IMG/VR virus record: IMGVR_UViG_3300030389_004188
Strand: one strand, 5' to 3'
From: an uncultured virus (IMG/VR IMGVR_UViG_3300030389_004188)
Taxonomy: Duplodnaviria; Heunggongvirae; Uroviricota; Caudoviricetes
Length of the DNA stretch: 64,000 bases
Shown here: positions 1 through 64,000 of the stretch, piece after piece
Layout of the letters: every line of letters begins with the position of its first letter
How positions within the stretch are numbered: position 1 is the first letter of the stretch
The notes under the pieces: model-generated
The model's database searches: none
The model's input: only the letters and a program-made list of their open reading frames with translations
What the model was told of the DNA's origin: nothing
Position numbers and translations under genes: made by a program

Positions 1-1
1 G

Positions 2-928
2 TTAGTACCTTATGTTGGTGCTGAAATCACTTCTGCAAATAGTTCTGGATTTGATTTATCAAGTTCTACTGCAAGTGGTTCAGTTGCTTATAAGAGGGCA
101 CTAAATGCAATAAGTAATGCTGATGAGTTTGATATCAATATGTTGGTAACACCTGGTGTGATTTCAAGATTACACTCTAATGTAACTAATCATGCTATCA
201 CTAAAGTGGAAGAAAGAGCAGATACATTTTATGTAATGGATTCAGCAGCTTGGGGTGATACAATCAGTACAGTAACTGGTGAGGTAGAAAAATTCGACAC
301 TAATTATGCGGCAACTTATTATCCGTGGGTAAAGATTGTAGACTTAAATACAAATCTACCTACTTGGGTTCCGCCTTCAGTAGTATTACCTGGTGTAATA
401 TCTTTTACTGATAAAGTGGCACACGAATGGTTTGCACCTGCTGGTTTGAATCGTGGTGGTTTGACTTCTGTAACAGAAGCTAAAACACGATTGACTCACG
501 AAGAAAGAGATGACTTATACGAAGGTAGAGTCAATCCAATCGCAACATTTCCTGGTCAAGGTGTTTGTGTTTGGGGTCAAAAGACCTTACAAGCAAAACC
601 ATCTGCATTGGATAGGGTAAATGTAAGAAGATTGTTGATTAGACTTAAGAAGTTTATCTCAAGTTCTTCAAGGTTCTTGGTATTTGAACAGAACACAATC
701 TCTACAAGAAATCGTTTCTTGAACATTGTGAATCCGTTCTTAGAATCAGTACAGGCTAATAGTGGTCTGTCAGCGTTCAGAGTTGTAATGGACGATTCAA
801 ACAACACACCTGATGTCGTAGACAGAAATAGGTTAGTTGGACAAATCTTCATTCAACCAACAAGAACTGCAGAGTTCATTGTACTTGACTTTATTGTACA
901 ACCAACTGGAGCTTCTTTTCCAGAGTAA
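2..928 (+). CDS. Contractile tail sheath protein (C-terminal part; gene starts before the window)
   Basis: Frame is open from position 2. Sheath motifs YYPWV, WFAPAGLNRG, NPIATFPGQG, WGQKTL, DRVNVRRL, PTRTAEFI. Confidence 0.95.
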   Translation, partial: LVPYVGAEITSANSSGFDLSSSTASGSVAYKRALNAISNADEFDINMLVTPGVISRLHSNVTNHAITKVEERADTFYVMDSAAWGDTISTVTGEVEKFDTNYAATYYPWVKIVDLNTNLPTWVPPSVVLPGVISFTDKVAHEWFAPAGLNRGGLTSVTEAKTRLTHEERDDLYEGRVNPIATFPGQGVCVWGQKTLQAKPSALDRVNVRRLLIRLKKFISSSSRFLVFEQNTISTRNRFLNIVNPFLESVQANSGLSAFRVVMDDSNNTPDVVDRNRLVGQIFIQPTRTAEFIVLDFIVQPTGASFPE

Positions 929-945
929 TTAGTCAATTACATTTC

Positions 946-974
946 AAAAAGCCCCACTACTCGTGGGGTTTTTT
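946..974 (+). terminator. Intrinsic terminator after the sheath gene
   Basis: AAAAA-GCCCCAC-tactc-GTGGGGT-TTTTT hairpin with U tract (A tract on the other side). Confidence 0.85.
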
Positions 975-1046
975 GTTTAAGAATAAAACTATGAAAAAAC
1001 TATGAAAAATGATACCAAAACAAATCAGACGATTTTTTAGAATACT

Positions 1047-1055
1047 GATATTTAT
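1047..1055 (+). promoter_or_regulatory. Putative late promoter motif (GATATTTAT)
   Basis: Same or similar motif recurs in intergenic gaps at 2652, 14224 and 45474. It resembles the T4 late TATAAATA element or its reverse complement. Confidence 0.5.
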
Positions 1056-1091
1056 TACTGAAATAAGAAATTTTTTAATTGGAGAAATCAA

Positions 1092-1583
1092 ATGCCAGAT
1101 TTATTAGATCCTTCTGAAATAATGTTCACACCGTTTGAACCGAAGACTAAAAACCGATATGTAATGTACATTGAAGGAATTCCGTCTTACCTTATCAAAG
1201 CGGCAAATAGACCATCTATTCAGTTTGATACAATAGAATTAGATCACATAAATGTGAAAAGATATGTCAAGGGTAAAGGTGCTTGGCAAACTATAGACAT
1301 AACACTTTACGACCCAGTTGTTCCATCGGCTGCACAGGCAGTAATGGAATGGGTTAGATTATCACACGAGTCTGTTACGGGTCGTGATGGATATTCAGAC
1401 TTTTACAAAAAAGATGTAACATTCAATCTACTCGGACCTGTTGGTGATGTTGTAGAAGAATGGACATTGAAAGGGGCATACATACAGAATGCAGCTTTCA
1501 ATGATTTGGATTGGGGTAATGGAACTGATCCAGTAGACATAACACTAACATTACAATACGATTACGCAATATTACAATTCTAA
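1092..1583 (+). CDS. Tail tube protein (T4 gp19-like)
   Basis: Follows sheath; 163 aa; GKGAWQTIDITLYD, EEWTLKGAY, ITLTLQYD; GGAG RBS. Confidence 0.9.
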   Translation: MPDLLDPSEIMFTPFEPKTKNRYVMYIEGIPSYLIKAANRPSIQFDTIELDHINVKRYVKGKGAWQTIDITLYDPVVPSAAQAVMEWVRLSHESVTGRDGYSDFYKKDVTFNLLGPVGDVVEEWTLKGAYIQNAAFNDLDWGNGTDPVDITLTLQYDYAILQF

Positions 1584-1667
1584 CAATACTTTTATATCTG
1601 GCATTTTTTCCAAAAGTATAGTTATATAAATGGTTTTAGTATAGTATAATAACATAGGAGTATAGCA

Positions 1668-2438
1668 ATGGCTGACTTTCAGTTTCCAACTGAAGTGGTA
1701 GATTTGCCGTCACAAGGTAAACTCTATCCAAAAGAATCACCATTAGCAAAAGGTACTATTGAAATAAGATATCCTACCGCAAAAGACGAGGATATTCTAA
1801 CATCAGTAAATCTTGTAAGAAAGGGTCAAGTTATTGACAAATTCATACAGAATCTTATTGTTGATAAGAAAATAAAATATAGTGAACTTTTGATTGGTGA
1901 TAAAAACGCAATTATGATAGCTGCAAGGATACTTGCATATGGTAAGAAATATGAAGTTGAGTTTGAACATCCGACTAATGGTCAGAAAGTATCAGACACA
2001 ATTGATTTGACTTCATTCAAAGATAAAATCATAGATGAAAGTTTATTACCAAAAAGTGGGAGTGATATACCATTTAAGCTACCTAATTCAAAAATAGATG
2101 TTACTTTCAAGTTACTTACTGCATTGGATGAAGATGAAGTAACAAGAGAACTTGAGGGTTTGAAAAAAATATCAAAAGTAGATGGAGTCGATAGGGGAGT
2201 AACTACTCGTCTAAAGAGACTCATTACATCTGTAAATGGAGATTCCGAAAAGGCAACTATCACGGAGTTTGTCGATAATTATCTTCTTTCAAGGGATGCC
2301 GTAGCATTGCGTGAACATGCGAGAATGGTAACACCTGATATAGACTTAAGTTGGGACTATATGGATGAAGACGGAGTAAATCACACCTTACAACTACCCA
2401 TCACCACCAAGTTTTTTTGGCCCGAGTCCGCAATATAA
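1668..2438 (+). CDS. Tail assembly chaperone / baseplate hub assembly (gp26-like) protein
   Basis: LPSQGKLYP, TAKDEDIL, GDKNAIMIAARILAYG, C-terminal FFWP; lies between tube and tape measure. Confidence 0.7.
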   Translation: MADFQFPTEVVDLPSQGKLYPKESPLAKGTIEIRYPTAKDEDILTSVNLVRKGQVIDKFIQNLIVDKKIKYSELLIGDKNAIMIAARILAYGKKYEVEFEHPTNGQKVSDTIDLTSFKDKIIDESLLPKSGSDIPFKLPNSKIDVTFKLLTALDEDEVTRELEGLKKISKVDGVDRGVTTRLKRLITSVNGDSEKATITEFVDNYLLSRDAVALREHARMVTPDIDLSWDYMDEDGVNHTLQLPITTKFFWPESAI

Positions 2439-2448
2439 GGCGGACTTG
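2412..2448 (+). promoter_or_regulatory. Putative programmed frameshift signal (UUU UUU U plus hairpin)
   Basis: T7 run at 2412-2418 in frame (TTT TTT TGG), followed by stem GAGTCCGC/GCGGACTT (2424-2447). The +1/-2 frame continues into ORF 2446..2643. Confidence 0.65.
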
Positions 2449-2643
2449 CATTCTGAGATATGGTATCTCCTCTACCTCGGACAGGGCCAATTTACATTTG
2501 ACCAAGTGTATACCCTGCCCATCTATCTTCGTAGGTTTTACATAAAGAAATACGAAGAACAAAACCAAAAAGAAAAAGAATATATGGACAAACAAACCAA
2601 AAAAACTCAAGGTATTTCTAAGCCTGGAATAACGAGAAAATAG
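2419..2643 (+). CDS. Frameshifted C-terminal extension of the tail chaperone (GT-like)
   Basis: Open in the +1 frame from 2380 to 2643; only a TTG start with no evident RBS; reads GPSPQYKADLHSEIWYLLYLGQGQFTF... Confidence 0.6.
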   Translation, partial: GPSPQYKADLHSEIWYLLYLGQGQFTFDQVYTLPIYLRRFYIKKYEEQNQKEKEYMDKQTKKTQGISKPGITRK

Positions 2644-2651
2644 TATTTCAC

Positions 2652-2660
2652 GATATTTAT
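2652..2660 (+). promoter_or_regulatory. Putative late promoter motif (GATATTTAT)
   Basis: Identical to the motif at 1047, intergenic, upstream of an RBS. Confidence 0.5.
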
Positions 2661-2679
2661 AACTATATTGGAGAATCTT

Positions 2680-2919
2680 ATGAAAACTCGTGGAAAACTA
2701 ACAGAAGGTATTCTTGACGGAATATTAAAATTGATATTGAAAGGTCGTTCTAACGCTCTAAATAAGGCATTTAATAATGACCCTACAATACAGAAAGCCA
2801 CGAAAGAAACAGAAGAGGCTCTCGATACTTGGGAGCAAACCTTAGTGAAATTAGCAAAACAAGGTAGTCCAAGTGCAAAGAAAGCTTTATCCGATTTGAG
2901 AAAATATCGTAATCTATAA
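2680..2919 (+). CDS. Small hypothetical virion-module protein
   Basis: ATG at 2680 preceded by GGAGA; in the frame of ORF 2668..2919. Confidence 0.7.
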   Translation: MKTRGKLTEGILDGILKLILKGRSNALNKAFNNDPTIQKATKETEEALDTWEQTLVKLAKQGSPSAKKALSDLRKYRNL

Positions 2920-2971
2920 TAAGTTCTTCAGAAATCATAGTATTTCAAAATTCAACTAAAAGAAAAAAAAT

Positions 2972-5284
2972 ATGGCAACTAATCAAGAAGTTAGGAATCA
3001 GAACGAATTAACCAAAGGTGCAAAATTATATAAAGACGCCGTTGTCGGTTCTGTAAAAGCCTTTAAGGAAATGGGTCAAGACACCAAGAAAATGTTGTCT
3101 ACTTTTGACTCCATTACTGATTCAATTTCTGAAATTGCAACAAGTTTTGATGATATTGGTGATTCTACATTTTTGATAATGGACAACACCAAGACTCTTC
3201 AAAAACAAATTGCAAAAGTAGCAAAAACAAATAAAGACCAAGCAACAGTACTAAATTCACATTTGAAGGCGTATCAAGGTGCATTGTCTACTGCAAAAAA
3301 ACTTGATGCACAAGCAAAATTATTACTTGGTCCGTTGGAGAGTGCAAAGAATTTTGTTGATGGAATGTTTGGACAAACCCTATCTGATGCATTGGGATTG
3401 GGAAAAATATTTGATGACCTAAATGATACAATTAAAGATGCATTTCTAAATTTAGATTATGTAGATAATTTACGAAAAGGAATTACTGATACTATTAATG
3501 GTGCTACTGCAGCTTTTCAAGAGTTGGGTGGTGTAAAAATGGATGGTATGGAAGAAGCAGCTGAGGCTGCAGAAGAAGTTTCAAAGAGTACTATGACGAG
3601 TTATGATGCTATAGGTAATGGAAATCGTGTAGCAAACGAACAGGCAAGAAAGCTCGCAGAAGGTGCAGATGGTGCAGGAGATATAGCTGATGCAGCAGCA
3701 GCAGGTAAATTACAAATGTTGGCTTTAGGTGCAGCTGCACTTGCAACTGTTGCATATTTTGCATCAATCGTAAAGGGTGCAATAGAGTTGAGAAAAGAGT
3801 TAGGTGTTTCTGTAATTGAGGCATCAAAACTAACCAAACAATCACAAATCTTATCATTTCAATTCGCACTATTGGGTGTTAGTGGAGATGAGATAAAAAG
3901 TGCACAAATTGCAATACGAGAAGAGTTGGGTGGAACTGTAGATGGTTCAAGGCAGTTTTTATCTAATCTTATCAATACATCTGCACAAATCGGAATGAGT
4001 GCTAGTGACTTGATTGTGATGAGAGAAAATATGAGAGCAATTGGTGGATTTTCACAAGACCAAGCAGATGCATTGATTATGTCTACTCGTGAATTAGCAA
4101 CTCAAAAGAATGTAATACCAAGTAAGGTATTTGCAGATGTCACGGAAGATGCAGAGTTTTTTGCAAACTATGCTAAAGATGGTGGAAAGAATTTATTAGA
4201 TGCTGCGGTTGCAGCAAGACAACTTGGAAGTAACTTAGCAATAACTGCTAAAGTTGCAGATTCACTTTTAGACTTTGAAAGTTCTGTGAATGCAGAAATG
4301 GAGGCAAGTGTTTTACTCGGAAGAGATTTGAATTTAGATATGGCAAGAAGAGCAGTTCTTAATAGTGATATGCTAACCGTACAAAAAGAAGTATTGAGAG
4401 TTGTGGGTAGTATGGCAGAGTTCGATAGACTCAATGTTATTGAAAAGCAAAAGCTCGCAGCTGCAGTTGGATTATCCACAAGTGAATTATTGACTCAAGT
4501 AAAGGCTGCAGAAAGAAAGAAAATTTTAGATGACGATAGTCTAACTACTCAACAAAAATTGGAAAGTGGTTTAGTAGGTATATCTGATTTAATAGGAAAA
4601 GGTATAAATCAATTTATGGCCACATTTGGAGATTCGTTAGCTGGTATTGGTACTACTCTTATTAGTGTTATTATGCCTGCATTAGGTACAATATTTACAG
4701 TTATTGGTGCGATATTAATTCCTGTTGCTGGTATTGCAGAAGCTTTCAATATGGTGAATGATTATCTTGGTGGTGCTTTAGGCTCAATTGTAGGTATAGG
4801 AGCTGCAATGTACGGATTAGTGACAGTATATAAAACCTTGAAAGGTATTGCTGCAGTAACAGCTGTTTTTGATATTTTTAGAAATGCATTTACAAAAGGT
4901 GGTCATCCAGTTTTAGCTCTTAGTCTAGCAACTGCCTCTATTATTGGTATGATGAGTATGGCAAAAAAAGTAATGAATGTTGGTGATATGCAGATGAGTG
5001 GTGGTGGTGCCACAATAATGACTTCAGGTACAAGTGGTGGTATTTTTAATACTCGAGCTGACGATGAAGTCAATGTAGGTCCAAAAGGATTTATGGCACA
5101 GGCAGTTACAAATGGAATGTTACAAGTTGCAAGTATGCAACAACAAGGAAGTAGTGAGGTTGCTCAAGCATTCAATAGATTTGAGAGTGGACAGAAACAA
5201 AGACACTTAGAGGCACAAACTTCTCGTGGTGTATTGACAGACCAAACAAAACGAAACAGACCAGGTGAGGTGGTAATAACATAA
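2972..5284 (+). CDS. Tape measure-like protein
   Basis: 770 aa, Ala/Gly-rich helical with hydrophobic segments; LLDFESSVNAEMEASVLLGRDLNL motif; position after chaperone. Confidence 0.75.
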   Translation: MATNQEVRNQNELTKGAKLYKDAVVGSVKAFKEMGQDTKKMLSTFDSITDSISEIATSFDDIGDSTFLIMDNTKTLQKQIAKVAKTNKDQATVLNSHLKAYQGALSTAKKLDAQAKLLLGPLESAKNFVDGMFGQTLSDALGLGKIFDDLNDTIKDAFLNLDYVDNLRKGITDTINGATAAFQELGGVKMDGMEEAAEAAEEVSKSTMTSYDAIGNGNRVANEQARKLAEGADGAGDIADAAAAGKLQMLALGAAALATVAYFASIVKGAIELRKELGVSVIEASKLTKQSQILSFQFALLGVSGDEIKSAQIAIREELGGTVDGSRQFLSNLINTSAQIGMSASDLIVMRENMRAIGGFSQDQADALIMSTRELATQKNVIPSKVFADVTEDAEFFANYAKDGGKNLLDAAVAARQLGSNLAITAKVADSLLDFESSVNAEMEASVLLGRDLNLDMARRAVLNSDMLTVQKEVLRVVGSMAEFDRLNVIEKQKLAAAVGLSTSELLTQVKAAERKKILDDDSLTTQQKLESGLVGISDLIGKGINQFMATFGDSLAGIGTTLISVIMPALGTIFTVIGAILIPVAGIAEAFNMVNDYLGGALGSIVGIGAAMYGLVTVYKTLKGIAAVTAVFDIFRNAFTKGGHPVLALSLATASIIGMMSMAKKVMNVGDMQMSGGGATIMTSGTSGGIFNTRADDEVNVGPKGFMAQAVTNGMLQVASMQQQGSSEVAQAFNRFESGQKQRHLEAQTSRGVLTDQTKRNRPGEVVIT

Positions 5285-8200
5285 TGGCACTCAAGGACTT
5301 AAAATCAGATTTAGGAAGAATATCCACGGTAGATTTTATATCAAATACCGTAAATGATGGTTTTATCAAGAATGATAATTCACGAGACACGAGTCGTTTC
5401 AAAGGTGTTGCTGGTCAATCCTATGGATATCCAAACTATAGTGGATTGGGATTGGGACTAATTAGTTCAGTAGACTTTTTTCCAAATGTAGATGCAAATG
5501 GATTTAGTCAAAGATTTGTAGATAGAGATGCCAGTAAATTTCAAGGTATCAAAATAAAAGGAGAGGACTATACATATTCATATCCAAATAATTATGGTAT
5601 GAATTTGGGATATACAGACGAGGTAACTACAGTAGATTTCTTATCGGGTCGTAGTGGAGAGTGGGGTTCAAACACATTACCAAACGGATTTACAAAAACT
5701 TTCAATAGTAAGTATAGTTCACAATTAGTAAATGATGGTAATACTTTTCCATATAATGTAATCTCACCTAAATCGTGGGATATAGATGAAACCACAAACT
5801 CATCTGCATTTACTTTCAAGACTCGTTCACAATTACAAGATAGTGGATTACTATATATTCCAGATTCAACTGGTGGGCCCTTACCCACTAATACAAATCC
5901 ATATTTAGATATTTTGGGAGACTTACAATTTAGTAATTGGAAATCACAACATAATAAACTTGGATATGGAAAAGATTTACCAAATGGGGAGTTTTCAGGT
6001 TTACCATTTATTGTTAGAAATATAGGTCAGAGGTGGGATGGTAATAGTTATCCAACCATAGGATTTTCTGGAGATTTCTTCAGAGGTGGAGTGATGACAC
6101 GAATTGGTAGACAAGATTCTGATTTTGTTAGATTGAGTGCGGTAACACAAAGGAGTAATTTTATAGGTAATAATTCTATATTACAATCTCTAAATTTACG
6201 ACAAGAAACTCGTGTTATGGCATTACCAAAAATTTTATTGTCCGCAACAACAGATGCGGCATACACTCGACACACCGATGTTAGTAAAGGTGTAGACTTT
6301 TTTAAGAAAGCTTTAGATGCATTTAGTGCTGCAGGTGGTGGAACTTCAGAACTACCAACAACTGGTGCAGAGGCTAGTCTATTCAATCAAAATGTTAGTG
6401 ACCTTGAAATTGCAAGAAATACACAAGTCACGAGTCATGCACAATCTGCACTAAATAATAATAGACTACAACAGGCACAAAACAGAACTAAATTTGGTTC
6501 TTCTATGTCTTCATTTTTTGATAATACAAAAACTACTACTAATAGAACATTACCACCTTTATTCACACCATCAAGAGCAAGTATCAATGATTTCTTAATT
6601 AGTAACGATAATGACCCTAATCTACCAGAGTTTGCTAGATTGGGTGATGGTATAGGTGCATTACCTAATCTTGGTCCTTCAAGAGTTATAGGACCAGGTG
6701 CTATGACAGATGGTGTGGGGTTGAATGTTATCTCCAATACACAACAAGAAGCTAATTTAAAATTTGGTCAAGTAAATACTGATAATTTTGGTGCAAGTTT
6801 GGCACCATATAGTGCACAAAATGGAGTTCTTGATTGGGGACTAAGTACGAGACATCAATTCTCACCAGGTACTCCAAGTCGTATACTTCAAGGTCCTGAT
6901 GGGGCATATGAAAATAATATTCCAGTTTCATATTTGGCAAAACATACTCACGAAGAGAATTTTGCACTTGGTGTTTATACCACAGGAACAGATGATTATT
7001 TGAGTAATTGGATGGATAATCAAATGGCAAGTGTAGATGGATTGAATACTAAAAAAGATAGACCACCAAATCCAAACGATAGATTGAGTAAGGCATTTTA
7101 TTCTTTCTTTCACGGAGACCCAACAGAATTCTTGGCAGACAAGTATTATGGGACAAGTGCAATACAAACTTATAATATAGGTGGACAACGAATTCCAATA
7201 TATAGTTTAGACCAACCAGAAAATGGTGCACCTACTTCTTTTCTTGGTAAACTTTCAAGTGGATTCAAGTCAATGGTGAATAGTATAATGAGTGCAACAA
7301 TTGCTACACGATTTGAAAACACACGAAATGCTGGTACACTAATGAAATCCAATGTGTTGGGTCGTATGGAAAATTTATATTTTGGTAGTGGGAAGGCCTT
7401 TGAATTGGCTGATAATGACTTTTCAACAGTAGATGAGGCAAGAGCTTTTCAAACAAATGATTTGATATTTGGTGGACAAAATGGTTCGTTTAGTAACTTT
7501 AGTATGTTTGTAAACGATGAGGGTAGAGTTGAAAACAAATATGGTACAGATACATTAGACTCGGCTGTAGGACATTTTAGAAAGTATGCACCATATGCAC
7601 AAAATGCTTCATCAATAGGTCCTACATCAGATTTACAAATGACTGCTGGTTGGGAGATGGAATCAACTATTGATGCAAGTTCTCTATCAAATGCTGAAAA
7701 AGATAAATACTTTGAAATGAATGGTGAAGAGATTGATTTATGGTCAGACTTTGGTATACGATATAAACAATCTAAATTGGCAATACCAACAGATAGAGTA
7801 AAAACACTAAAAGGAAAATTAGATACTAAGGAGTTGGTCGAGAAACCAAACTCACCATTTTATCCAAAGGTTACAAATGCTGCTAAGAGTCAAGATTTTA
7901 GGGTAAGACCTCGTACTGAAACCTCAGATAAAGAACTTCCAGATGGAATTAAACCTCGTTCTTATGCAACATTACATTATGGTATGTTGGGTAGTCGTTA
8001 TGATTCAGATTTTGAAGATAAGAGTTTTTCATATGAAAAAACAAAGATGAGTCCATCAGAACAGCTAGAGAATCCAGAGGTTATTACTAATCTCGTTGAT
8101 GACACAACACCAGAAAAAGAAAATAAATTTTTCAATGAAGAACTTCGTAAGAGAACTGATGGTCAAAATAAAGTAAAACTGATAGGTAATCAAGGTAGAA

Positions 8201-9087: not shown

Positions 9088-9094
9088 GTAAGTA

Positions 9095-9424: not shown

Positions 9425-9426
9425 AT

Positions 9427-13428: not shown

Positions 13429-13429
13429 G

Positions 13430-14200: not shown

Positions 14201-14223
14201 TTTATTGTTTGGTATTTTAGGAT

Positions 14224-14237: not shown

Positions 14238-14252
14238 AATTAGGGTTATAAT

Positions 14253-50306: not shown

Positions 50307-50307
50307 G

Positions 50308-58089: not shown

Positions 58090-58301
58090 GAGATTTACAA
58101 TCATCACTAAAATCAAAAGGTGAGTATGTAACACAGATAATTCACTTTGTTGGCGGAGTGAAAAGAACATTTGAGGGTGTATCGACATCCAAAATAAAAC
58201 AAGGTCAAATGACTAAATTAGAACTAAAGGATGGTAGAATAGTAATGATAAATGATACAAATGTATTATGTGTAGAAGTATTTTCAGAGGATATGGAATG
58301 A
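58086..58301 (+). CDS. Small hypothetical protein
   Basis: 71 aa, overlapping starts/stops on both sides. Confidence 0.7.
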   Translation: MRDLQSSLKSKGEYVTQIIHFVGGVKRTFEGVSTSKIKQGQMTKLELKDGRIVMINDTNVLCVEVFSEDME

Positions 58302-59596
58302 GTGTAGTAGACAAAATAAAGAATCTCATTGACGAGATTGAATCAGATAAGAGTGTATTGAGGTACTCGTACAATACCTCAGATATAGTTCCTGGTAAGA
58401 CTCCAATATACTATTCAGGTCCTTATTGGGATTCTGATGAGTTGAAGGCTGGTGTTGTTTCATTTTTGACTGGTAAGTGGTTGAGTTCAGGTGAAAATGT
58501 ATATAAATTTGAAAAGAAATTCTCAAAAAGATTCAAGTGTGGAAACTCAGTTATGGTCAATAGTGGTAGTTCTGCAAATCTTGTTATGATTGCAGGAATA
58601 AAGAAACATTTGAAATGGAATGATGGTGATGAGATAATTGTATCACCAGTTGGATTTCCAACTACCATTGCACCTATTGTTCAGAATAATATGACTCCAA
58701 TATTTGTGGACATCGAATTCGACACATTGAACTTTGATGTAAAACTAATAGAGAAAAAGATAACAAGTAAAACACGAGGTATATTTTTATCACCAGTATT
58801 AGGTAATCCTTGTAATATGGATTTCTTGGATTACTTATGTAAGAAATATAACTTGGAATTAATTTTAGATGGGTGTGATTCACTTGGTACATTATGGAAT
58901 GGTAAATATCTAACAGAAATGGCAAAAGTATCTTCTTGTTCTTTTTATCCAGCACATCACATTACTTGTGGTGAGGGTGGTATGATTTCATCAACAGATG
59001 AGGATTTGATTTCTATGGTGAGAAGTTTTTCTTGGTGGGGAAGAGATTGTTATTGTGTCGGTAGTGCTAATTTACTTGCTTGTGGAACTTGTGGTAATAG
59101 ATTTGATAAATGGTTAGAACCAATGTATGATGGTATAGTAGACCACAAATATATTTTTACCAATATGGGATACAATCTAAAACCATTAGACTTACAAGGT
59201 GCACTTGGACTCGAACAATTGAAGAAGTTTGATTTCATTGAAGAGAAAAGAAGAGAGTCAAGAGAAAGAGTTTCTAAAATATTTGAAGATAATCTTGATA
59301 TAAAAGTACCAATTCAGTTAGACCAAGCCGATACCTCGTGGTTTGGTACACCAATAATCTGTAAGGACAAGGAACAAAAAGATAAGATTGTTAGTCACCT
59401 TGAAGAAAATAAAATACAGACTCGTAACTATTTTGCGGGTAATATTTTGATACATTCTGGTTACTCACATTTGGATGATTACAAATTATATCCAAATTCA
59501 AATGAAGTCTTGGATAGAATATTTTTTGTAGGGGCTGCACCACATTACAACGATGATGTGTTTCAGTACATAGAAGATGTAGTGAGAAAAATATGA
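58298..59596 (+). CDS. rfbH: RfbH/DdhC-like CDP-4-keto-6-deoxyglucose 3-dehydratase (PMP, Fe-S)
   Basis: NSGSSANL, SFYPAHHIT.GEGG (His in place of Lys), WGRDCYC..CGTC..RF, DHKY, GYNLKP. Confidence 0.85.
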   Translation: MSVVDKIKNLIDEIESDKSVLRYSYNTSDIVPGKTPIYYSGPYWDSDELKAGVVSFLTGKWLSSGENVYKFEKKFSKRFKCGNSVMVNSGSSANLVMIAGIKKHLKWNDGDEIIVSPVGFPTTIAPIVQNNMTPIFVDIEFDTLNFDVKLIEKKITSKTRGIFLSPVLGNPCNMDFLDYLCKKYNLELILDGCDSLGTLWNGKYLTEMAKVSSCSFYPAHHITCGEGGMISSTDEDLISMVRSFSWWGRDCYCVGSANLLACGTCGNRFDKWLEPMYDGIVDHKYIFTNMGYNLKPLDLQGALGLEQLKKFDFIEEKRRESRERVSKIFEDNLDIKVPIQLDQADTSWFGTPIICKDKEQKDKIVSHLEENKIQTRNYFAGNILIHSGYSHLDDYKLYPNSNEVLDRIFFVGAAPHYNDDVFQYIEDVVRKI

Positions 59597-60441
59597 GTCA
59601 GTTAGGAGATAGGAAAGTATCAATTGTTATTTCACTTTTCTTGAAAACAAGAGCAGTTGTAGGTGGTTCACGAGACAATCCAAATAATAATACTAAATTA
59701 TTTGATATGTGTCAAAATGTTATGAAGTATGCCAATTCGATATCAAATAAAAACATACAAGTGTTCTTGGGAGTAAACTATACAGAGGATTCTGATAAGA
59801 AATGTTTAGATTATTTGGAAAAAGAATCTGATAGAAATCAATTTATCACCTTTGTACGAAGAAATAATAATTTAGGTGGTTGGTCGTATGGATTGTTTGA
59901 TTATGTATTTAGACAAGAAAGAGATAATGGATATGATTATTTTATATTCTACGAAGATGACCAGGTTTCAAAGTATGGGTGGGATGAAAATGTAATATCA
60001 AATTCGATTATGACAATGGAAAAGAATAATGAAATAGGATTTTTTGCATCAATTGGAGTGAATAAAAGAGACCCATTCAAAAGAATAGGTACTTGTTCTG
60101 CACATAATGGTACAGGAATGTCTTCAACTAAAATCTTGGGTGAGGTTTGTGATAAGTGGGGACAATTGAATTGGTCAAAAGTTGAGGGTGGATTTATTCA
60201 CAATGGATATGGTGATAAAATTCAAGTAACAGGATTGACCAGACCACAAATGGTAGAAAGAGCCCTTGAGTTTTTACCACAATATACTGAGGATGTAACT
60301 TCATCATACAATAGAAAAGTTCAAGCCGCATTTAGTGAGGTGGATTTTACTGATAGTATTTGTAAGTTGGGTTATGGAATCTATGAAGAAAAAGGTGGAC
60401 CAGGTGGTAAGGGAGTTTTACATTGGAGGACAGCAAAATGA
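59593..60441 (+). CDS. GT-A-like glycosyltransferase
   Basis: NLGGWSYG, YDYFIFYEDD. Confidence 0.55.
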   Translation: MSQLGDRKVSIVISLFLKTRAVVGGSRDNPNNNTKLFDMCQNVMKYANSISNKNIQVFLGVNYTEDSDKKCLDYLEKESDRNQFITFVRRNNNLGGWSYGLFDYVFRQERDNGYDYFIFYEDDQVSKYGWDENVISNSIMTMEKNNEIGFFASIGVNKRDPFKRIGTCSAHNGTGMSSTKILGEVCDKWGQLNWSKVEGGFIHNGYGDKIQVTGLTRPQMVERALEFLPQYTEDVTSSYNRKVQAAFSEVDFTDSICKLGYGIYEEKGGPGGKGVLHWRTAK

Positions 60442-61178
60442 AAAAAACTATAGTAGTTGGAACAGGAAGATGTGGTACACGAGGGTTTGCAAAAGCCTTT
60501 GGTGGAGTTCACGAGTATAAAACATTCGAGAGATTTCATCCATTATATGTTAGGATGAACACTGCAGTTCGTAATCCATTTCCAAGATTTGAAGACAGAC
60601 TTTATAGTTCAAAGTTGATGTATCACGACTTAGAACAATTACATCCACATAAAGAATCATTTATGAATGTAGATAATTCTATGACTTGGTTGGTAGATGG
60701 AATCTATAAATTCTTTGAGGGTGATGTGAAGTTTATTTTATTAGTAAGAGATGGTAGAGATTTTGTTACATCAGCCGTAAATAGAGGATGGGCAGAGAGA
60801 GTAGAGTTAGACCATTATCCATTAGAGGGTGATTTGGTTAGAGACAGATGGGACAATATGTCTTTGATTGGAAAGGCATCTTGGATGTGGAATGAAAGAA
60901 ATAGAAGGGCACTAAATTATTTGGCAGAGATACCAGAAGATAGTTGGAAAGTACACAGAATCGAGGATTCAACAGAAGAGAGTTTGAAAGAGTTATCAGT
61001 ATGGTGTGAACAACCATTAGTTGATTCCAATCAGATTTTGAAAGGTAATGAGAATACAAACATTGGAAGTGGAAGGTATAATAAGAAAATAGAAAACCAC
61101 CAAAGATGGAATGAAAAAGAAAAATTAGACTTTTGGGAATACTCTCAAGAGTTACAGGAGTATTTTGGATATGAGTAA
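60438..61178 (+). CDS. Sulfotransferase-like protein
   Basis: 5'-PSB-like VGTGRCGT, HE, 3'-PB-like LLVRDGRDFVTS, YFGYE terminus; ATG 60438 after GGAGG. Confidence 0.7.
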   Translation: MKKTIVVGTGRCGTRGFAKAFGGVHEYKTFERFHPLYVRMNTAVRNPFPRFEDRLYSSKLMYHDLEQLHPHKESFMNVDNSMTWLVDGIYKFFEGDVKFILLVRDGRDFVTSAVNRGWAERVELDHYPLEGDLVRDRWDNMSLIGKASWMWNERNRRALNYLAEIPEDSWKVHRIEDSTEESLKELSVWCEQPLVDSNQILKGNENTNIGSGRYNKKIENHQRWNEKEKLDFWEYSQELQEYFGYE

Positions 61179-61920
61179 AGTATTATTTGTAATACCCACA
61201 ACTGCAAGAAGATTGAAGTTGTTATCTAATGTAGTACAAGAGGTATTGGATAAAAATAAAAACCACGAGTGTGAATTTATTGTGGTAAAAAATGGTAATT
61301 TTCCTGAAGATGTATATGATGAGTTTGAATTACAACCAGAAGTAATCAAAGAAAGGTCAGAACCTGCAGCAAATATTGCAGTGGCAATAAACAAAGGACT
61401 TTCATATCAAAGAGATGACCACGATTGGGTAGTTATACTTGAGGACGATTTTTTAATACATAAGGAGAATTGGATTGATACTTATATAAAAGTTATGGAG
61501 TCAAAAGATAAATGTGGTTGTATTGGTTCACGAGTTCACGGAAAACAAAGTAAGATGAGAGTACCAAGTTTACAATTTGAGTCACCTCAATCGTTTGAAG
61601 TTTTTTGGACAGATGGGGTAAACTTTCTAAGGCCAGAAATTACTTGGGACCATAAATTAGATGAACAATTTTGGGGAAACTCAGAAGTACCAGATTATTG
61701 TGTAACACTTATAGACCACGGTTGGGAAAATTGGTATGTTTATGTTGAACACACTCACGACACAATATCAGAAGAAAAGAAATATGAATATTCAGAAACA
61801 CATATCAATCAGTTTGCAAACAGAGGTAAGTTGTGGACTAAATGGTGTGAGACAGATAATGATAAAATTTTTACTTATGTGATGATGGATTTAGTAGAGG
61901 ACAGACAATATGCAGAATAA
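61171..61920 (+). CDS. Glycosyltransferase, GT2-like
   Basis: FVIPT..R, AINKGL, VVILEDD. Confidence 0.7.
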   Translation: MSKVLFVIPTTARRLKLLSNVVQEVLDKNKNHECEFIVVKNGNFPEDVYDEFELQPEVIKERSEPAANIAVAINKGLSYQRDDHDWVVILEDDFLIHKENWIDTYIKVMESKDKCGCIGSRVHGKQSKMRVPSLQFESPQSFEVFWTDGVNFLRPEITWDHKLDEQFWGNSEVPDYCVTLIDHGWENWYVYVEHTHDTISEEKKYEYSETHINQFANRGKLWTKWCETDNDKIFTYVMMDLVEDRQYAE

Positions 61921-62755
61921 AAATCTTGTATGGTTGAATGGTATAGTACCAACAGACCCTATGATTAGAAGAAAATACGGGTTTGATAACATAGATTGGA
62001 TTGAGTTATCAAAGTATTATTGGAGTAAGTATTGTGAGATACACGATGGTATAGATTTATATCATTATGAAAAAGTTAGTCCACCATATACAAATACAAA
62101 TAAACATAGAGTACCTTGGACACGATGGTTTGACCAAATAAAATTTCTTGAAAGACCAGAGAACTCTCATTACGAAAAAGTGTACTCAGTTGATGCAAGT
62201 ACATTGATAAATTTGAAAGAATGTCCTAATATATTTACACGAACCGAAAGAGAACCCGACAATGACTTTTGGGGTACTCGTGACTTTGCAAATCTTGGGT
62301 GGACATATGATGGTATTGTTGGTTATGAAGACATATGTAATTACAATAATATAAAATATGACCACACGAGATACTTTGCTGCTGGGCATGTCTTGTATGA
62401 TGTGAAGAAAATGTTACCTATGTTGAAAAAATTAGAGAAGTTTTACAACGATAATATGGAAGTAATACTTGAGAAACAAAATCACTCTGTTAGAAAAGGT
62501 ACAGACCAAGTAGTATTCAATTGGTTAGTTCAATCAGAGGGAATCAAATATGACTTATCTTTATTGGATGTTAGGTATCAGGCAACACATTTCAAACGAT
62601 ATGAATGGGATAAGGCAGCAGATGGATACTTGAGACAAAATTATATATTATCTATTTCAGGTATGTCAAAGAAAGACGAAAGAGGTATTTTGATGAAAGA
62701 GTTACACGAGTTACTACTAAATCTTTATCCAGACTATATAGGAGCTGTAAAATGA
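61910..62755 (+). CDS. GT-A glycosyltransferase-like protein
   Basis: YCEIHD, SVDAS, YFAAG, TDQVVFN. Confidence 0.6.
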   Translation: MQNKNLVWLNGIVPTDPMIRRKYGFDNIDWIELSKYYWSKYCEIHDGIDLYHYEKVSPPYTNTNKHRVPWTRWFDQIKFLERPENSHYEKVYSVDASTLINLKECPNIFTRTEREPDNDFWGTRDFANLGWTYDGIVGYEDICNYNNIKYDHTRYFAAGHVLYDVKKMLPMLKKLEKFYNDNMEVILEKQNHSVRKGTDQVVFNWLVQSEGIKYDLSLLDVRYQATHFKRYEWDKAADGYLRQNYILSISGMSKKDERGILMKELHELLLNLYPDYIGAVK

Positions 62756-63483
62756 ATGTAGTTTTTATGATTGATATACAAAATGACGATAGGTCAAAAA
62801 ACACACCTTACAAATTGAGTCAAGAAGTGTGGAAGGCTTGGATAGAAGATAAACCTGATACAGAATTATTTGTATTGAATGAACCACTATTTGATGACCC
62901 AAACATAAGACCTAATTTTTACAAAATGTATTTTCCTCAGTTGATGGAGGCTACAGGACAAGAATGGGACAAATGTTTGTATGTAGATTCAGATACAATT
63001 CCCTCACCAGACTTACCAAATATATTTGATGTGGTTGGTGATAAATTTGGTGTGGTTAGAAACTTTGGTTCGTGTGAATGGGTAGTGAGGTCAATATTGA
63101 ATTGGAGAAACAATTTATTTCCTGAAGAACCAATACTAAATTACTCAAGGTATTTCAATTCTGGTATGATGGTATTTTCAAAACACCATACTGAATTTTT
63201 TGAAAAGGCACAAGAATGTTTTACAGAAAACTTTGCAAAAATTATGGGGTTGGTAAGACTTGGGTGTGGTATAGACCAAACTATGTTGAACTTTTTGACA
63301 AGAAAACACAATGTAGATATGATGTGGTTACCATATGAATATAATATGCAAGACCTAATAAGATTTGAAGTACCAGAAGATTGGCCAGGATACATATGGC
63401 ATTTCAATGCCATACCCAATGACCCACAAAAACATCATACTAATATATTGATGCAAACAAAGGCAAATTACTTATGGAGATAA
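62752..63483 (+). CDS. Glycosyltransferase, GT8-like
   Basis: LYVDSD, YFNSG, DQTMLN, LPYEYN, IWHF. Confidence 0.8.
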   Translation: MNVVFMIDIQNDDRSKNTPYKLSQEVWKAWIEDKPDTELFVLNEPLFDDPNIRPNFYKMYFPQLMEATGQEWDKCLYVDSDTIPSPDLPNIFDVVGDKFGVVRNFGSCEWVVRSILNWRNNLFPEEPILNYSRYFNSGMMVFSKHHTEFFEKAQECFTENFAKIMGLVRLGCGIDQTMLNFLTRKHNVDMMWLPYEYNMQDLIRFEVPEDWPGYIWHFNAIPNDPQKHHTNILMQTKANYLWR

Positions 63484-64000
63484 AATATAGATACATTGTA
63501 GGTTGTCACATAATGTTTTATGAAATTGATATGATAACCGAGTATATAGATTCTCTTGTACAATGGGACTATATAACTAATAAAGAAAATATAACTATAG
63601 ATTTATTTTATAATATGAGTCAGTATTTTGAAAAGATGGATACTGATAAAGTAAAGAAACACGAATTTTTAATTAGGTTCAAACGACAAGTTGCGAGACT
63701 TGAATCATTAGGATTTCTTGTTGAGTATGAGGTTTATGATGATGATGAAACACCATACACAATGTCAGACTATCGTAGAGACCTAAATTATAAATCTGTA
63801 AACTCACTCAAATATGATTATACGATATGGGGTGAAAGTGATTGTTTACTACCAAAAGAAATGTTACCAACACTTGACCACATAATGGATAACTCACCAG
63901 TACCAAGATACATTGTGACATTTGCCATAAGAAAGATGTGGGATGATAGTTGGAGAGTATTAGAACATCCAAAGTTTACTGATAGTCCATTTTATGAAAT
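63474..64000 (+). CDS. Probable GT-A glycosyltransferase (runs off the window end; not in the ORF track)
   Basis: MEIKYRYIVGCHIMFYE...YDYTIWGESDCL...RKMWDDSW, open to 64000. Confidence 0.6.
   Translation, partial: MEIKYRYIVGCHIMFYEIDMITEYIDSLVQWDYITNKENITIDLFYNMSQYFEKMDTDKVKKHEFLIRFKRQVARLESLGFLVEYEVYDDDETPYTMSDYRRDLNYKSVNSLKYDYTIWGESDCLLPKEMLPTLDHIMDNSPVPRYIVTFAIRKMWDDSWRVLEHPKFTDSPFYE

What the first reader, a model, noticed from the sequence alone, without database searches (positions are those of the whole stretch)
1..64000. Context-dependent palindrome avoidance: CATG and CTAG survive only as GCATG/CATGC and GCTAG/CTAGC
Seen by eye: I found 16 CATG (191, 2316, 6436, 8491, 14490, 21254, 26899, 32274, 35129, 36155, 36407, 42021, 46801, 51460, 56259, 62387) and 18 CTAG (4002, 4925, 6374, 6635, 8065, 8957, 8992, 10040, 10810, 14010, 18788, 22661, 25819, 30677, 50533, 53426, 54241, 57272). 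A rough base-composition expectation is well over 100 each. Every one has a 5' G or a 3' C, so one strand's C sits in a GpC. His-Val forces either CATG or ACGT, and all 9 His-Val junctions I found use CAT with a normally rare G-ending previous codon (gtg, aag, ggg, tcg, acg, cag). Pro-Trp is written CCT TGG and His-Glu CAC GA. GC-centred palindromes AGCT and TGCA are common. Inference: the phage marks C in a short GC-containing motif, and this blocks host enzymes at overlapping CATG/CTAG sites, so only self-protected copies persist. The window encodes three SPPY (typically m4C) methyltransferases that could do this. Alternative: host enzymes recognise degenerate 6-mers such as HCATGD and HCTAGD.
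Basis: partly seen in the sequence, partly recalled or inferred. Interest (0 to 1): 0.9.

Follow-up and report, generated by a model that had tools for sequence, protein, structure and literature searches.

The report
Restriction sites survive only beside GpC
In this ocean phage every surviving copy of several otherwise purged restriction sites overlaps a G-C step, which points to a phage-made chemical mark on GC that shields its DNA from bacterial cutting enzymes.

Summary
The window has 16 CATG and 18 CTAG, against 123 and 154 expected from a codon-preserving shuffle. All 34 carry a 5' G or 3' C (null 0.23-0.25; p about 1e-21). Codon choice shows active selection: His-Glu/Gly/Asp use CAC 72 of 72 times, all 9 His-Val use CAT after a G-ending codon, and only GCT (13 of 13) precedes AGN codons.

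The rule is general. An unbiased scan finds only 'G before C' words (CATG, CTAG, CAGTG). In six diverged relatives with other avoidance spectra, 35 of 35 surviving CTAG are G-flanked. ACGT, TCGA and AGCT survivors show no flank effect.

- Positive control: Synechococcus phage S-B43, with a proven GC-motif cytosine modification, keeps 8 CCGG, and 8 of 8 are G-flanked.
- Negative control: Microcystis phage Mel-JY01 has 0 CTAG and 0 GATC.

Best reading: a phage-borne mark on GpC shields overlapping sites. Its assignment to the SPPY methyltransferases, and to m4C, is untested.

Unexplained: GATC follows the same G-flank rule without forming a GpC, GCGC is purged, and NGC codons are almost absent.

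This is a new variant of known GC-modifying phage systems, with a sequence-only signature found in none of three searches of print.

The parts
1..64000 (.). Genome-wide signature. CATG, CTAG and CAGTG/CACTG survive only next to a 5' G or 3' C. ACGT, CCGG, CGCG and GCGC are absent. GATC is 18 and TTAA is 67. GpC odds ratio is 0.59. NGC codons are nearly absent.
191..62390 (.). The 16 CATG sites, at 191, 2316, 6436, 8491, 14490, 21254, 26899, 32274, 35129, 36155, 36407, 42021, 46801, 51460, 56259 and 62387. All are GCATG or CATGC. Nine are His-Val junctions (CAT GTN) preceded by a G-ending codon.
4002..57275 (.). The 18 CTAG sites, at 4002, 4925, 6374, 6635, 8065, 8957, 8992, 10040, 10810, 14010, 18788, 22661, 25819, 30677, 50533, 53426, 54241 and 57272. 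All are GCTAG or CTAGC. Thirteen are GCT|AGN codon junctions. The site at 22661, in the gp32-like gene, is conserved in G004 and G008.
1107..55166 (.). The 18 GATC sites. Fourteen are GGATC or GATCC. The four exceptions are at 1242, 21655, 22023 and 28113.
   Evidence: null 0.367; p = 4.6e-4
37502..38728 (+). Methyltransferase MA, 408 aa. Motif I (DFSAGWGDR) comes before motif IV (TSPPYF). Sits next to the sliding-clamp gene. An ortholog is present in every related contig examined. Main candidate writer of the GpC mark.
38707..39924 (+). Methyltransferase MB, 405 aa, 51% identical to MA. Present in the window clade, G008 and G010.
42304..43383 (+). Methyltransferase MC, 359 aa, 33% identical to MA over the catalytic core. 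Present in the window clade, G003 and G011.
33425..34189 (+). Beta-class DPPY methyltransferase, 254 aa. PF01555 at 191.5 bits. Resembles YhdJ/CcrM-type adenine methylases. GANTC is not avoided (262 copies).

Best explanation
The packaged DNA of this marine T4-like phage carries a modification on the GpC dinucleotide. The simplest version puts it on the cytosine of 5'-GC-3' when the next base is A, C or T, and probably not in GCG. A phage-encoded enzyme writes it.

Host restriction enzymes for CATG, CTAG and CASTG (and CCGG in relatives) have purged every copy of those sites, with one exception. A copy survives if its outer C:G pair happens to be half of a GpC. That copy then has a modified base inside the recognition sequence on one strand and cannot be cut.

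Where an amino-acid pair forces the site, the neighbouring codon has been pushed to end in G. This is the case for His-Val, because CAC GTN would create the equally forbidden ACGT.

The best candidate enzyme is the SPPY methyltransferase at 37502-38728. It belongs to a large virus-associated family and sits among the clamp and clamp-loader genes. Its paralogues at 38707-39924 and 42304-43383 may add further specificities.

Shown here: the sequence signature, its selection at codon level, its generality across motifs and lineages, and the controls.

Inferred: that a modification exists, that it sits on C, which enzyme writes it, and its chemistry.
For: 1. 34 of 34 CATG/CTAG are G/C-flanked, against a null of 0.23-0.25. 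The non-overlapping 57.7 kb of the sister contig G002 adds CATG 12 of 12 and CTAG 6 of 6.

2. Codon-level selection:
- His-Glu 25/25, His-Gly 24/24 and His-Asp 23/23 use CAC.
- His before non-G codons is 212 CAT to 94 CAC.
- His-Ala, where CATGC is allowed, is 5 CAT to 10 CAC.
- His-Val is 9/9 CAT after a G-ending codon.
- Before AGN codons only GCT occurs (13/13). ACT, CCT and TCT never do, although they are used 454, 206 and 308 times overall.

3. I scanned all 4- and 5-mers against all four flank bases, using the codon shuffle as the null. Only G-before-C words passed: CATG, CTAG, their sub-words and CAGTG. CASTG survivors are G/C-flanked in 6 of 7 cases.

4. Relatives at 56-69% methyltransferase identity have different avoidance sets but follow the same rule:
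- CTAG: G004 9/9, G005 11/11, G006 2/2, G008 3/3, G009 5/5, G010 5/5. That is 35/35, log10 p = -24.3.
- CATG: G010 6/7.
- CCGG: 24/38 against a null of about 0.22 (p = 6e-8).
- The sites are independent, apart from one conserved position.
- Where a site is not avoided, the flank fraction is at null (G004 CATG 27/230).

5. Internal negative controls: survivors of ACGT, TCGA, AGCT and TTAA show no G-flank excess.

6. GC-centred palindromes are not purged beyond the general GC deficit: AGCT 78 against Markov 62, TGCA 297 against 271, GGCC 21 against 24.5.

7. Positive control: Synechococcus phage S-B43. CmoX writes 5-carboxymethylcytosine at GC motifs, and about 75% of GC sites are modified (PMC12783734, passages and section 13 read). 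It has 8 CCGG against 323 (zero-order) or 120 (Markov) expected, and 8 of 8 are GCCGG/CCGGC (null 0.24; p = 1e-5). Its GpC odds ratio is 0.66.

8. Negative control: Microcystis phage Mel-JY01 is the nearest cultured PolB relative and has no MA-family gene. It has CTAG 0 of 592 and GATC 0 of 592 with no flanked survivors, and a GpC odds ratio of 1.02.

9. An MA ortholog is present in all 10 related contigs examined. However, they were found by searching with MA.
Against: - There is no chemical evidence for a modification.
- GCGC contains two GpC yet is purged. There is 1 copy against about 55 expected (first-order) in the window plus G004-G010. The mark must therefore skip GCG or fail to block that enzyme.
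- GATC follows the same 5'-G/3'-C rule without forming a GpC: 14/18 here, 19/19 in G007, 6/7 in the rest of G002. A pure GpC-cytosine model does not explain this.
- GpC is itself almost eliminated at synonymous sites: AGC 3 to AGT 466, GGC 13 to GGT 830, TGC 0 to TGT 183, CGC 1 to CGT 101. That is odd for a protective motif.
- A milder NGC deficit also occurs in S-CREM2, a cyanophage without a C5-methyltransferase. GpC depletion is therefore not diagnostic.

Against the enzyme assignment:
- Distant MA-family carriers (Bacteroides phage DAC16, Vibrio phage 2.058.O) show neither GpC depletion nor a flank rule.
- The MA model's nearest solved folds are tRNA N2-guanine methyltransferases (TrmN Z 16.5, Trm11 15.4, Trm14 15.3). 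These barely exceed generic Rossmann methyltransferases at 13-15.
- All contigs are 13-70% complete by CheckV. Another modifier could lie in the unseen part.
Confidence: 0.6

Rival explanations
1. The mark is not on the cytosine of GpC. It sits on the flanking G:C pair itself, or on guanine. For example, a G followed by C or G could be modified by an exocyclic-amine (N2-guanine-type) methyltransferase. One rule, 'G before an S-first site', would then cover CATG, CTAG, CCGG and GATC.
For: - GATC survivors obey the same 5'-G/3'-C rule: 14/18 in the window, 19/19 in G007.
- No flank effect is seen at A/T-first sites.
- The nearest solved folds to the MA model are the tRNA m2G methyltransferases TrmN, Trm11 and Trm14, at Z 15.3-16.5.
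- (D/N/S)PPY enzymes methylate exocyclic amines of A, C or G. This point is recalled knowledge.
Against: - GTAC shows no G-flank tolerance where it is avoided (G009 9/22).
- Under a 'G before S' rule, CCGG and GCGC would carry the mark internally and be protected. Yet they are purged.
- CpC/GpG shows no depletion comparable to GpC.
- The fold margin over generic methyltransferases is about 1.5 Z.
- I know of no precedent for N2-methylguanine as a phage DNA mark (recalled; not searched).
Confidence: 0.13
2. No phage modification is involved. The host restriction enzymes themselves need non-G/non-C flanks (HCATGD, HCTAGD and so on).
For: It would reproduce the pattern in this window taken alone.
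Against: - It needs the same flank preference in unrelated enzymes for CATG, CTAG, CASTG, CCGG and GATC. It also needs it in the hosts of lineages whose avoidance spectra differ.
- Mel-JY01 purges CTAG and GATC completely, flanked copies included.
- S-B43, which has a demonstrated GC modification, shows the same signature for CCGG.
Confidence: 0.07
3. The GpC mark is real but is written by something other than the SPPY paralogues. Candidates are an enzyme in the unsequenced third of the genome (for example a C5-methyltransferase or a CmoX-like enzyme) or a host methyltransferase.
For: - Contigs are 13-70% complete.
- Known phage GC writers are C5-type enzymes (PMC8256090 and PMC12783734, passages read).
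- Distant MA-family phages lack the signature.
- The extreme C-to-T-like loss of NGC codons would fit 5-substituted cytosine better than N4-methylcytosine. This last point is inference.
Against: - 0 of 5 contigs (35-70% complete) have a PF00145 match.
- 0 of 5 records have a Tet_JBP match, though that search rang in no control genome.
- There is no CmoX homolog in the window or in 10 contigs (tblastn, best E = 0.64).
- The unseen part is probably the structural module, because the window starts at the tail sheath.
- A host enzyme would have to be shared by the hosts of all lineages.
Confidence: 0.15
4. The pattern has a non-restriction cause. One option is a context-dependent mutation or repair bias, such as very-short-patch-like repair or a deaminase with GC preference. 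Another is functional constraint on GCTAG/GCATG words.
For: - CTAG is rare in many bacteria for repair-related reasons (recalled).
- NGC-to-NGT bias is extreme.
Against: - Unflanked copies are zero, against about 95-116 expected.
- Neighbouring codons are re-coded: His-Val 9/9, and GCT-only before AGN.
- Several unrelated motifs follow the same rule.
- Sites are at independent positions across lineages.
- A bias that destroys GpC would remove the survivors, not create them.
Confidence: 0.05

Closest known systems
CmoX / 5-carboxymethylcytosine (then 5-glycylcarboxymethylcytosine) at GC motifs in Synechococcus phage S-B43 (Nat Commun 2025, PMC12783734; passages and section 13 read)
   Same: - Both are marine T4-like myophages.
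- The modification is tied to the GC dinucleotide and said to protect against restriction.
- In my counts S-B43 has the same genomic signature: CCGG 8 copies, 8/8 G-flanked, GpC odds ratio 0.66.
- In the related S-CRM01 the CmoA-CmoX genes lie beside the clamp loader. That is the same neighbourhood as the SPPY genes here.
   Different: - CmoX is a C5-type enzyme with an SPPC catalytic motif, and it uses carboxy-SAM made by CmoA.
- Neither CmoX nor any PF00145 enzyme is found in the window or its relatives.
- The SPPY family is absent from S-B43.
- A profile comparison shows no relationship (hhalign probability 0.25%).
- The signature here is broader (CATG, CTAG, CASTG, GATC) and the GpC purge is far stronger.
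Phage GpC-specific C5-methyltransferases with TET dioxygenases and glycosyltransferases (Burke et al., PNAS 2021, PMC8256090; passages read), and M.CviPI of a chlorella virus as cited there
   Same: - Virus-encoded, orphan, dinucleotide-level GpC cytosine marking.
- Preferences at the 3' base (GC[C/T], GC[C/T/G]), comparable to the GCH preference inferred here.
- Glycosyltransferase and sugar-nucleotide genes are nearby in both.
   Different: - No C5-methyltransferase was found here (0 of 5 contigs).
- No Tet_JBP match was found (0 of 5, but the search rang in no control).
- The 2OG-Fe(II) oxygenases here are PF13640/DUF6445 types.
- The motif inferred here must include GCA, which their clade I enzymes do not target.
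Classical restriction-site (palindrome) avoidance in phage genomes (recalled from the literature, not from a call)
   Same: Short palindromes are strongly under-represented against codon-preserving nulls. The avoided set differs between related phages, presumably tracking host enzymes.
   Different: The classical picture treats a site as avoided or not. Here avoidance is conditional on one flanking base, with an all-or-none outcome. Two full-text searches and a look inside the S-B43 paper found no description of such flank-conditional avoidance.
PF01555 N6/N4 amino-methyltransferases (m4C enzymes with SPPY/SPPF motif IV such as M.PvuII and M.BamHI; these names are recalled)
   Same: - Invariant S-P-P-Y motif IV and an FxGxG-like motif I (DxSxGWGxR) in 81 aligned family members.
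- Weak PF01555 matches.
- One distant relative in a Vibrio phage is annotated as an N4-cytosine methylase.
   Different: - Only the first 60-110 positions of the 221-position profile match.
- MA scores 24.8 bits, below the 26.7 cut-off. MB scores 29.5 and MC 27.3.
- Motif I comes before motif IV, the reverse of the beta-class order (recalled).
- A conserved N-terminal domain of about 170 aa has no known family.
- No solved relative is found by sequence.

Membership tests
GC-motif cytosine-C5 modifying phage systems (CmoX; GpC C5-MT/TET; M.CviPI) | A C5-type cytosine transferase (PF00145 fold with a catalytic Cys, e.g. SPPC in CmoX) | tested here: not met
   PF00145 matches 0 of 5 related contigs, while the control genomes rang 9 of 14. 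tblastn of S-B43 CmoX against the window and 10 contigs gives a best E of 0.64. hhalign of A1 against CmoX gives probability 0.25%. The contigs are incomplete, so absence from the whole genome is not shown.
GC-motif cytosine-C5 modifying phage systems (CmoX; GpC C5-MT/TET; M.CviPI) | The modified base sits at GC in virion DNA | not testable with these tools
   Evidence is indirect only: the G-flank rule and the same signature in S-B43. Available runs are Illumina or contigs.
GC-motif cytosine-C5 modifying phage systems (CmoX; GpC C5-MT/TET; M.CviPI) | Partner enzymes (CmoA/CmoY, or a TET/JBP dioxygenase) | tested here: inconclusive
   Tet_JBP matches 0 of 5 records, but the search rang in none of the 14 controls. 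No CmoA-like hit appeared in Pfam scans of 60 window ORFs and 79 G002 ORFs. Glycosyltransferases and 2OG oxygenases of other families are present.
PF01555 N6/N4 DNA amino-methyltransferases | Score above Pfam's gathering threshold (26.7 bits) | tested here: inconclusive
   MA scores 24.8 (below), MB 29.5 and MC 27.3 (above). Each matches only the N-terminal third or so of the profile. The DPPY enzyme at 33425-34189 is a clear member at 191.5 bits.
PF01555 N6/N4 DNA amino-methyltransferases | Catalytic (S/D/N)PP(Y/F) motif IV and a SAM-binding motif I | tested here: met
   S270, P271 and P272 are invariant, and Y273 is nearly invariant. D192, G196, G198 and R200 are invariant in 81 sequences. 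The model is a confident Rossmann methyltransferase fold at pLDDT 95.
PF01555 N6/N4 DNA amino-methyltransferases | Acts on DNA, on N4 of cytosine | not testable with these tools
   The nearest solved folds are tRNA m2G methyltransferases at Z 15.3-16.5, against 13-15 for generic methyltransferases. No DNA methyltransferase is among the 50 rows shown, which does not exclude one.
Restriction-site avoidance | Short palindromes under-represented against a null that keeps protein sequence and codon usage | tested here: met
   Observed against expected: ACGT 0/101, CCGG 0/23, GATC 18/174, CTAG 18/154, CATG 16/123, TTAA 67/447. z scores run from -5 to -29.
Restriction-site avoidance | The avoided set varies between related phages (tracking hosts) | tested here: met
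   TCGA is 0 in G004 and G006 but 93 in the window. CATG is 230 in G004 against 16 in the window. GTAC is 0-2 in L073-L077.

The most novel reading that the evidence does not exclude
An abundant group of ocean T4-like phages uses a large, uncharacterised, virus-associated family of SPPY methyltransferases embedded in the replisome operon. The family has 6437 clusters at 50% identity. These enzymes would write a dinucleotide-level mark on GpC, with paralogues adding a GGATC-type specificity.

The mark would be strong enough to exempt every overlapping restriction site. It would also be costly, mutagenic or targeted enough that the phages have almost erased GpC from synonymous positions.

If so, a phage's epigenetic motif can be read from its bare genome sequence, using flank-conditional site survival. 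Metagenomes could then be screened for it.
Probability: 0.35. Interest if true: 0.8.

Novelty: new variant of a known kind. Interest (0 to 1): 0.72.

Why it matters
Phage DNA modifications are normally found by chemistry or long-read kinetics on cultured phages. Here a modification motif is inferred from sequence alone in an uncultured phage found in marine metagenomes from six studies.

The same signature appears in the one phage where a GC-motif modification has been demonstrated. If that holds more widely, three things follow:
- Flank-conditional survival of avoided sites becomes a cheap screen for phage epigenetic motifs across millions of viral contigs.
- A very large methyltransferase family with no studied member becomes a candidate writer of the mark.
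- The near-complete loss of NGC codons raises an open question. Why is the protective dinucleotide itself selected against: mutability of the modified base, cost, or modification-dependent host nucleases?

Tried and rejected
- No whole genome is held for the window.
- Megablast of 4.8 kb against cultured phages found nothing.
- Sequence searches of the PDB with MA and with a 12-sequence family profile gave no meaningful relative.
- Foldseek gave only generic Rossmann methyltransferases.
- Sequencing runs: 19 of 24 listed runs hold the stretch, but all of those are kept as Logan contigs. The only raw-read runs (X23, X24) are Illumina, were added by study, and are not indexed as holding it. No modification readout is possible.
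- Distant MA-family carriers were tested as extra positive controls: Bacteroides phage DAC16 and Vibrio phage 2.058.O. Both have GpC odds ratios of 1.12 and 1.02, and DAC16 GATC is G-flanked in 10/30 cases (null 0.28). There is no signature. This is uninformative, or mildly against a family-wide GC specificity.
- S-CRM01 (CmoX 65% identical) was tested as a second positive control. It has no strongly avoided C-first 4-mer, so the flank rule cannot be tested there. Its GpC odds ratio is 0.72.
- GpC depletion as a diagnostic was rejected. S-CREM2, which has no PF00145 hit, also shows a mild NGC deficit.
- I looked for a gene shared by the window clade and G007 (both tolerate GGATC) but absent from G004-G010. 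Only salvage enzymes and small ORFs turned up, with no methyltransferase. G007 is only 27% complete.
- I tried to link GGATC tolerance to paralogue MC. G007 shows 19/19 with no MC in its 50 kb, so this is unresolved.
- A word search of earlier findings, and a search by place, returned nothing.
- Two literature searches and a term search inside the S-B43 paper found no description of flank-conditional avoidance.
- Supplements of PMC8256090 (Figs S8-S11 on NGCN preferences) and of PMC12783734 were not opened. They may refine the comparison of 3'-base preferences.

Full report
**What the window is.** All large ORFs lie on the + strand. Pfam finds these families:
- T4-type tail sheath, tube and baseplate proteins, gp32, RecA, a B-family polymerase, clamp loader and a class II ribonucleotide reductase
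- ThyX, ClpP and a TonB-dependent-receptor-like gene
- a long block of sugar-nucleotide and glycosyltransferase genes

The nearest cultured polymerase is that of Microcystis phage Mel-JY01 (44.7% identity). Megablast to cultured phages finds nothing. Window 12335-64000 is 98.9% identical to one end of a 109-kb IMG/VR contig, G002. The stretch occurs in marine metagenomes from six studies. This is an uncultured marine T4-like myophage with an unknown Gram-negative host.

**The observation.** All 34 have a 5' G or a 3' C.

I ran 300 shuffles that permute synonymous codons within each gene. These are the results:

| Site | Expected | Flanked fraction in shuffles | Observed |
|---|---|---|---|
| CATG | 123.4 +/- 7.6 | 0.231 | 16 |
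| CTAG | 154.4 +/- 9.0 | 0.246 | 18 |

The chance of 34 of 34 being flanked is about 1e-21. Unflanked copies are 0, against roughly 95 and 116 expected. Flanked copies stand at 0.55 and 0.45 of expectation. That is the same deficit as GC-containing words in general (AGCT 0.54, GCTA 0.54, AGCA 0.57). So G-flanked copies appear to be tolerated in full.

The window also lacks ACGT, CCGG, CGCG and GCGC altogether. It keeps 18 GATC (174 expected) and 67 TTAA (447 expected).

**Selection is visible in codon choice**.
- His before a codon that does not start with G is CAT 212 times and CAC 94 times.
- His-Glu (25/25), His-Gly (24/24) and His-Asp (23/23) always use CAC.
- His-Ala, where CAT GCN gives the permitted CATGC, uses CAT 5 times and CAC 10 times.
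- His-Val cannot escape, because CAC GTN would make ACGT. All 9 junctions use CAT, and each follows a G-ending codon. Such codons are 10.8% of the total (p = 2e-9).
- His-Val is itself scarce: 9 against 24.7 expected, while Val-His is 32.
- Before AGN codons the only NCT codon is GCT (13/13). ACT, CCT and TCT are used 454, 206 and 308 times overall and never precede AGN.

**The rule is 'G before C', not two special 5-mers.** I scanned every 4- and 5-mer with each of the four flank bases against the shuffle. I asked for words whose non-flanked copies are at most 0.12 of expectation while flanked copies are at least 0.35. Only G-flanked C-first words passed: CATG, CTAG, four of their 5-mer extensions, and CAGTG. 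CASTG survivors are G/C-flanked in 6 of 7 cases.

**Relatives.** A search with the first SPPY methyltransferase (MA) returned 80 IMG/VR loci. I fetched ten whole contigs of 40-123 kb. Their avoidance sets differ. For example, TCGA is 0 in G004 and G006, and CATG is unavoided in G004-G009. The flank rule still recurs:
- Surviving CTAG are G/C-flanked in G004 9/9, G005 11/11, G006 2/2, G008 3/3, G009 5/5 and G010 5/5. That is 35/35 with nulls of 0.16-0.23 (log10 p = -24.3).
- Only one of 53 CTAG sites (window 22661, in the gp32-like gene) is at a shared position.
- CATG in G010 is 6/7.
- CCGG is 24/38 across G004, G005, G006, G008 and G010 (null about 0.22; p = 6e-8).
- The non-overlapping half of G002 adds CATG 12/12 and CTAG 6/6.
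- Where a site is not avoided, the flanked fraction is ordinary (G004 CATG 27/230, G007 CTAG 22/100).
- In G003 and G011 avoidance is weaker and so is the rule (CTAG 44/88 and 13/23).

I pooled 22 de-duplicated representatives. Survivors of ACGT (G-flanked 33 against 37.4 expected), TCGA (8 against 9.2), AGCT (25 against 20.8) and TTAA (17 against 27.5) show no G-flank excess. This rules out a compositional artefact.

**Controls from cultured phages.**

I read passages and section 13. In Synechococcus phage S-B43, CmoX carboxymethylates C5 of cytosine at GC motifs, about 75% of GC sites are modified, and the product resists HhaI.

In the S-B43 genome the only strongly avoided 4-mer palindrome is CCGG. 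There are 8 copies against 323 (zero-order) or 120 (Markov) expected. All 8 are GCCGG or CCGGC (null 0.24; p = 1e-5). The GpC odds ratio is 0.66. The paper's main text does not mention this.

Mel-JY01 has no MA-family gene. It has 0 CTAG and 0 GATC (592 expected each), with no flanked survivors, and a GpC odds ratio of 1.02.

So a phage known to mark GC shows the signature, and a phage without such an enzyme purges the sites outright.

S-CRM01 (CmoX 65% identical) has no avoided C-first 4-mer and is uninformative.

**Interpretation.** These data fit a phage-borne modification of GpC that leaves overlapping host sites hemi-modified and uncuttable.
- Sites whose C has a fixed non-G 5' neighbour (ACGT, TCGA) cannot be rescued, and they have no survivors or no flank effect.
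- GC-centred palindromes (AGCT, TGCA, GGCC) are not purged beyond the general GC deficit.
- The tolerated contexts are GCA, GCT and GCC.
- GCGC is purged: 1 copy against about 55 expected in the window plus G004-G010. This suggests the mark skips GCG, or does not block that enzyme.

Phage GpC methyltransferases with 3'-base preferences are known (PMC8256090, passages read).

**The enzyme.** The three SPPY paralogues lie among the sliding-clamp and clamp-loader genes. MA and MB are 51% identical, and MA and MC 33% over the core.

The family:
- It is large: 3037 hits at 90% clustering and 6437 representatives at 50%.
- It carries no names, and no solved relative is found by sequence.
- In 81 aligned members the SPP of motif IV and D/G/G/R of motif I are invariant.

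The AlphaFold model is confident (pLDDT 95). It is nearest to the tRNA m2G methyltransferases TrmN, Trm11 and Trm14 (Z 15.3-16.5), only slightly above generic methyltransferases.

Distribution of the paralogues:
- MA has an ortholog in all ten contigs, but they were found with MA.
- MB is in the window clade, G008 and G010.
- MC is in the window clade, G003 and G011.

No PF00145 enzyme (0 of 5 contigs) and no CmoX homolog is seen. However, the contigs are 13-70% complete.

Distant family members in Bacteroides phage DAC16 and a Vibrio phage come without the signature.

I therefore rate 'a GpC mark exists' well above 'MA writes it' and 'it is m4C'.

**What stays unexplained.**

1. GATC obeys the same flank rule although no GpC forms. 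It is 14/18 in the window (p = 5e-4), 6/7 in the rest of G002 and 19/19 in G007. In G004-G006 and G008-G010, GATC is 0-1 with no tolerance. GTAC shows no such effect. A second specificity, or a mark on the flanking pair, is needed.

2. GpC is nearly erased where synonymous choice exists. The C share of NGY codons is 0.011 in the window and 0.018-0.041 in G002 and G004-G010. For NAY, NCY and NTY it is 0.13-0.25. The NGY share is 0.11 in S-B43, 0.17 in S-CRM01 and 0.25 in S-CREM2, a control without a C5-methyltransferase. A mild deficit is therefore not diagnostic. The 5- to 20-fold deficit here has no tested explanation.

**Novelty.** GC-directed cytosine modification by viruses is established: M.CviPI, the GpC C5-MT/TET systems, and CmoX. 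New here are three things:
- the flank-conditional, all-or-none survival of avoided sites as a sequence-only signature
- its presence across a diverged group of uncultured marine phages that lack the known enzyme types
- the accompanying purge of NGC codons

Two full-text searches and a search within the S-B43 paper found no earlier description.

Noticed in passing
window 1-64000; also G002, G004-G010: NGC codons are almost absent: AGC 3 to AGT 466, GGC 13 to GGT 830, TGC 0 to TGT 183, CGC 1 to CGT 101. NAC, NCC and NTC codons are 16-24% of their Y pairs. The deficit is 5-20-fold, much stronger than in S-B43, S-CRM01 or S-CREM2.
   Followed up: partly
window GATC sites 1107-55163; G007 (L106-L108): GATC survivors are GGATC or GATCC in 14 of 18 cases here and 19 of 19 in G007. 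No GpC is formed. G004-G006 and G008-G010 tolerate no GATC at all.
   Followed up: partly
window 28801-31563 (+); L083:6432-6770 (-) in G002: The phage carries a TonB-dependent-receptor-like gene (CarboxypepD_reg plus Plug domains, 920 aa). The sister contig also has a TonB C-terminal-domain gene and three pilin-like N_methyl proteins. These may be host-surface auxiliary genes, and they hint at a Gram-negative, perhaps Bacteroidota, host.
   Followed up: no
window 45967-63998: An 18-kb block of glycosyltransferases, dTDP-sugar epimerases/dehydratases, two DegT-type aminotransferases and a C-methyltransferase. They could decorate the host envelope or the DNA. This was not resolved.
   Followed up: no
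L081:76-3559 (-) in G002: A fourth, longer paralogue of the SPPY methyltransferases (505 aa) lies beside a 640-aa protein with a weak GmrSD_C (DUF1524-type nuclease) match.
   Followed up: no
window, whole: Further avoided words: TTAA 67 against 447 expected, with GTTAA/TTAAC the most depleted (8 of 147). GGTACC is 0 (5.6-10.7 expected) and TTCGAA is 0 (11.6). CGACG/CGTCG is 0 of 15.8, GACGC/GCGTC 2 of 19.7 and GGAGG/CCTCC 8 of 70.
   Followed up: no
window, 34 CTGCAG sites: CTGCAG occurs 34 times against 17.1 +/- 3.4 in the codon shuffle. All copies are in one frame (NCT GCA GNN).
   Followed up: partly
window, proteins: The dipeptide His-Val is depleted at the protein level (9 against 24.7 expected; Val-His is 32). 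Site avoidance appears to have reached amino-acid sequence.
   Followed up: partly
L152 (S-CRM01, NC_015569.1 113586-117713): In S-CRM01 the CmoA-like and CmoX-like genes sit directly beside the gp62-type clamp-loader gene. The unrelated SPPY methyltransferases occupy the same neighbourhood in the window.
   Followed up: no
Mel-JY01 (L125-L134); Vibrio phage 2.058.O (L146-L151); DAC16 (L137-L145): Mel-JY01 has CCGG at 5.9 times expectation (948 against 161). In the Vibrio phage only 4 of 128 GGCC are G/C-flanked (null 0.36), so GGGCC is avoided there. DAC16 has a CpG odds ratio of 0.14.
   Followed up: no
window 22661: One GCTAG, in the gp32-like gene, is conserved at the same position in G004 and G008 (75-82% identity over 44 nt). 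It is the only shared CTAG among 53.
   Followed up: partly
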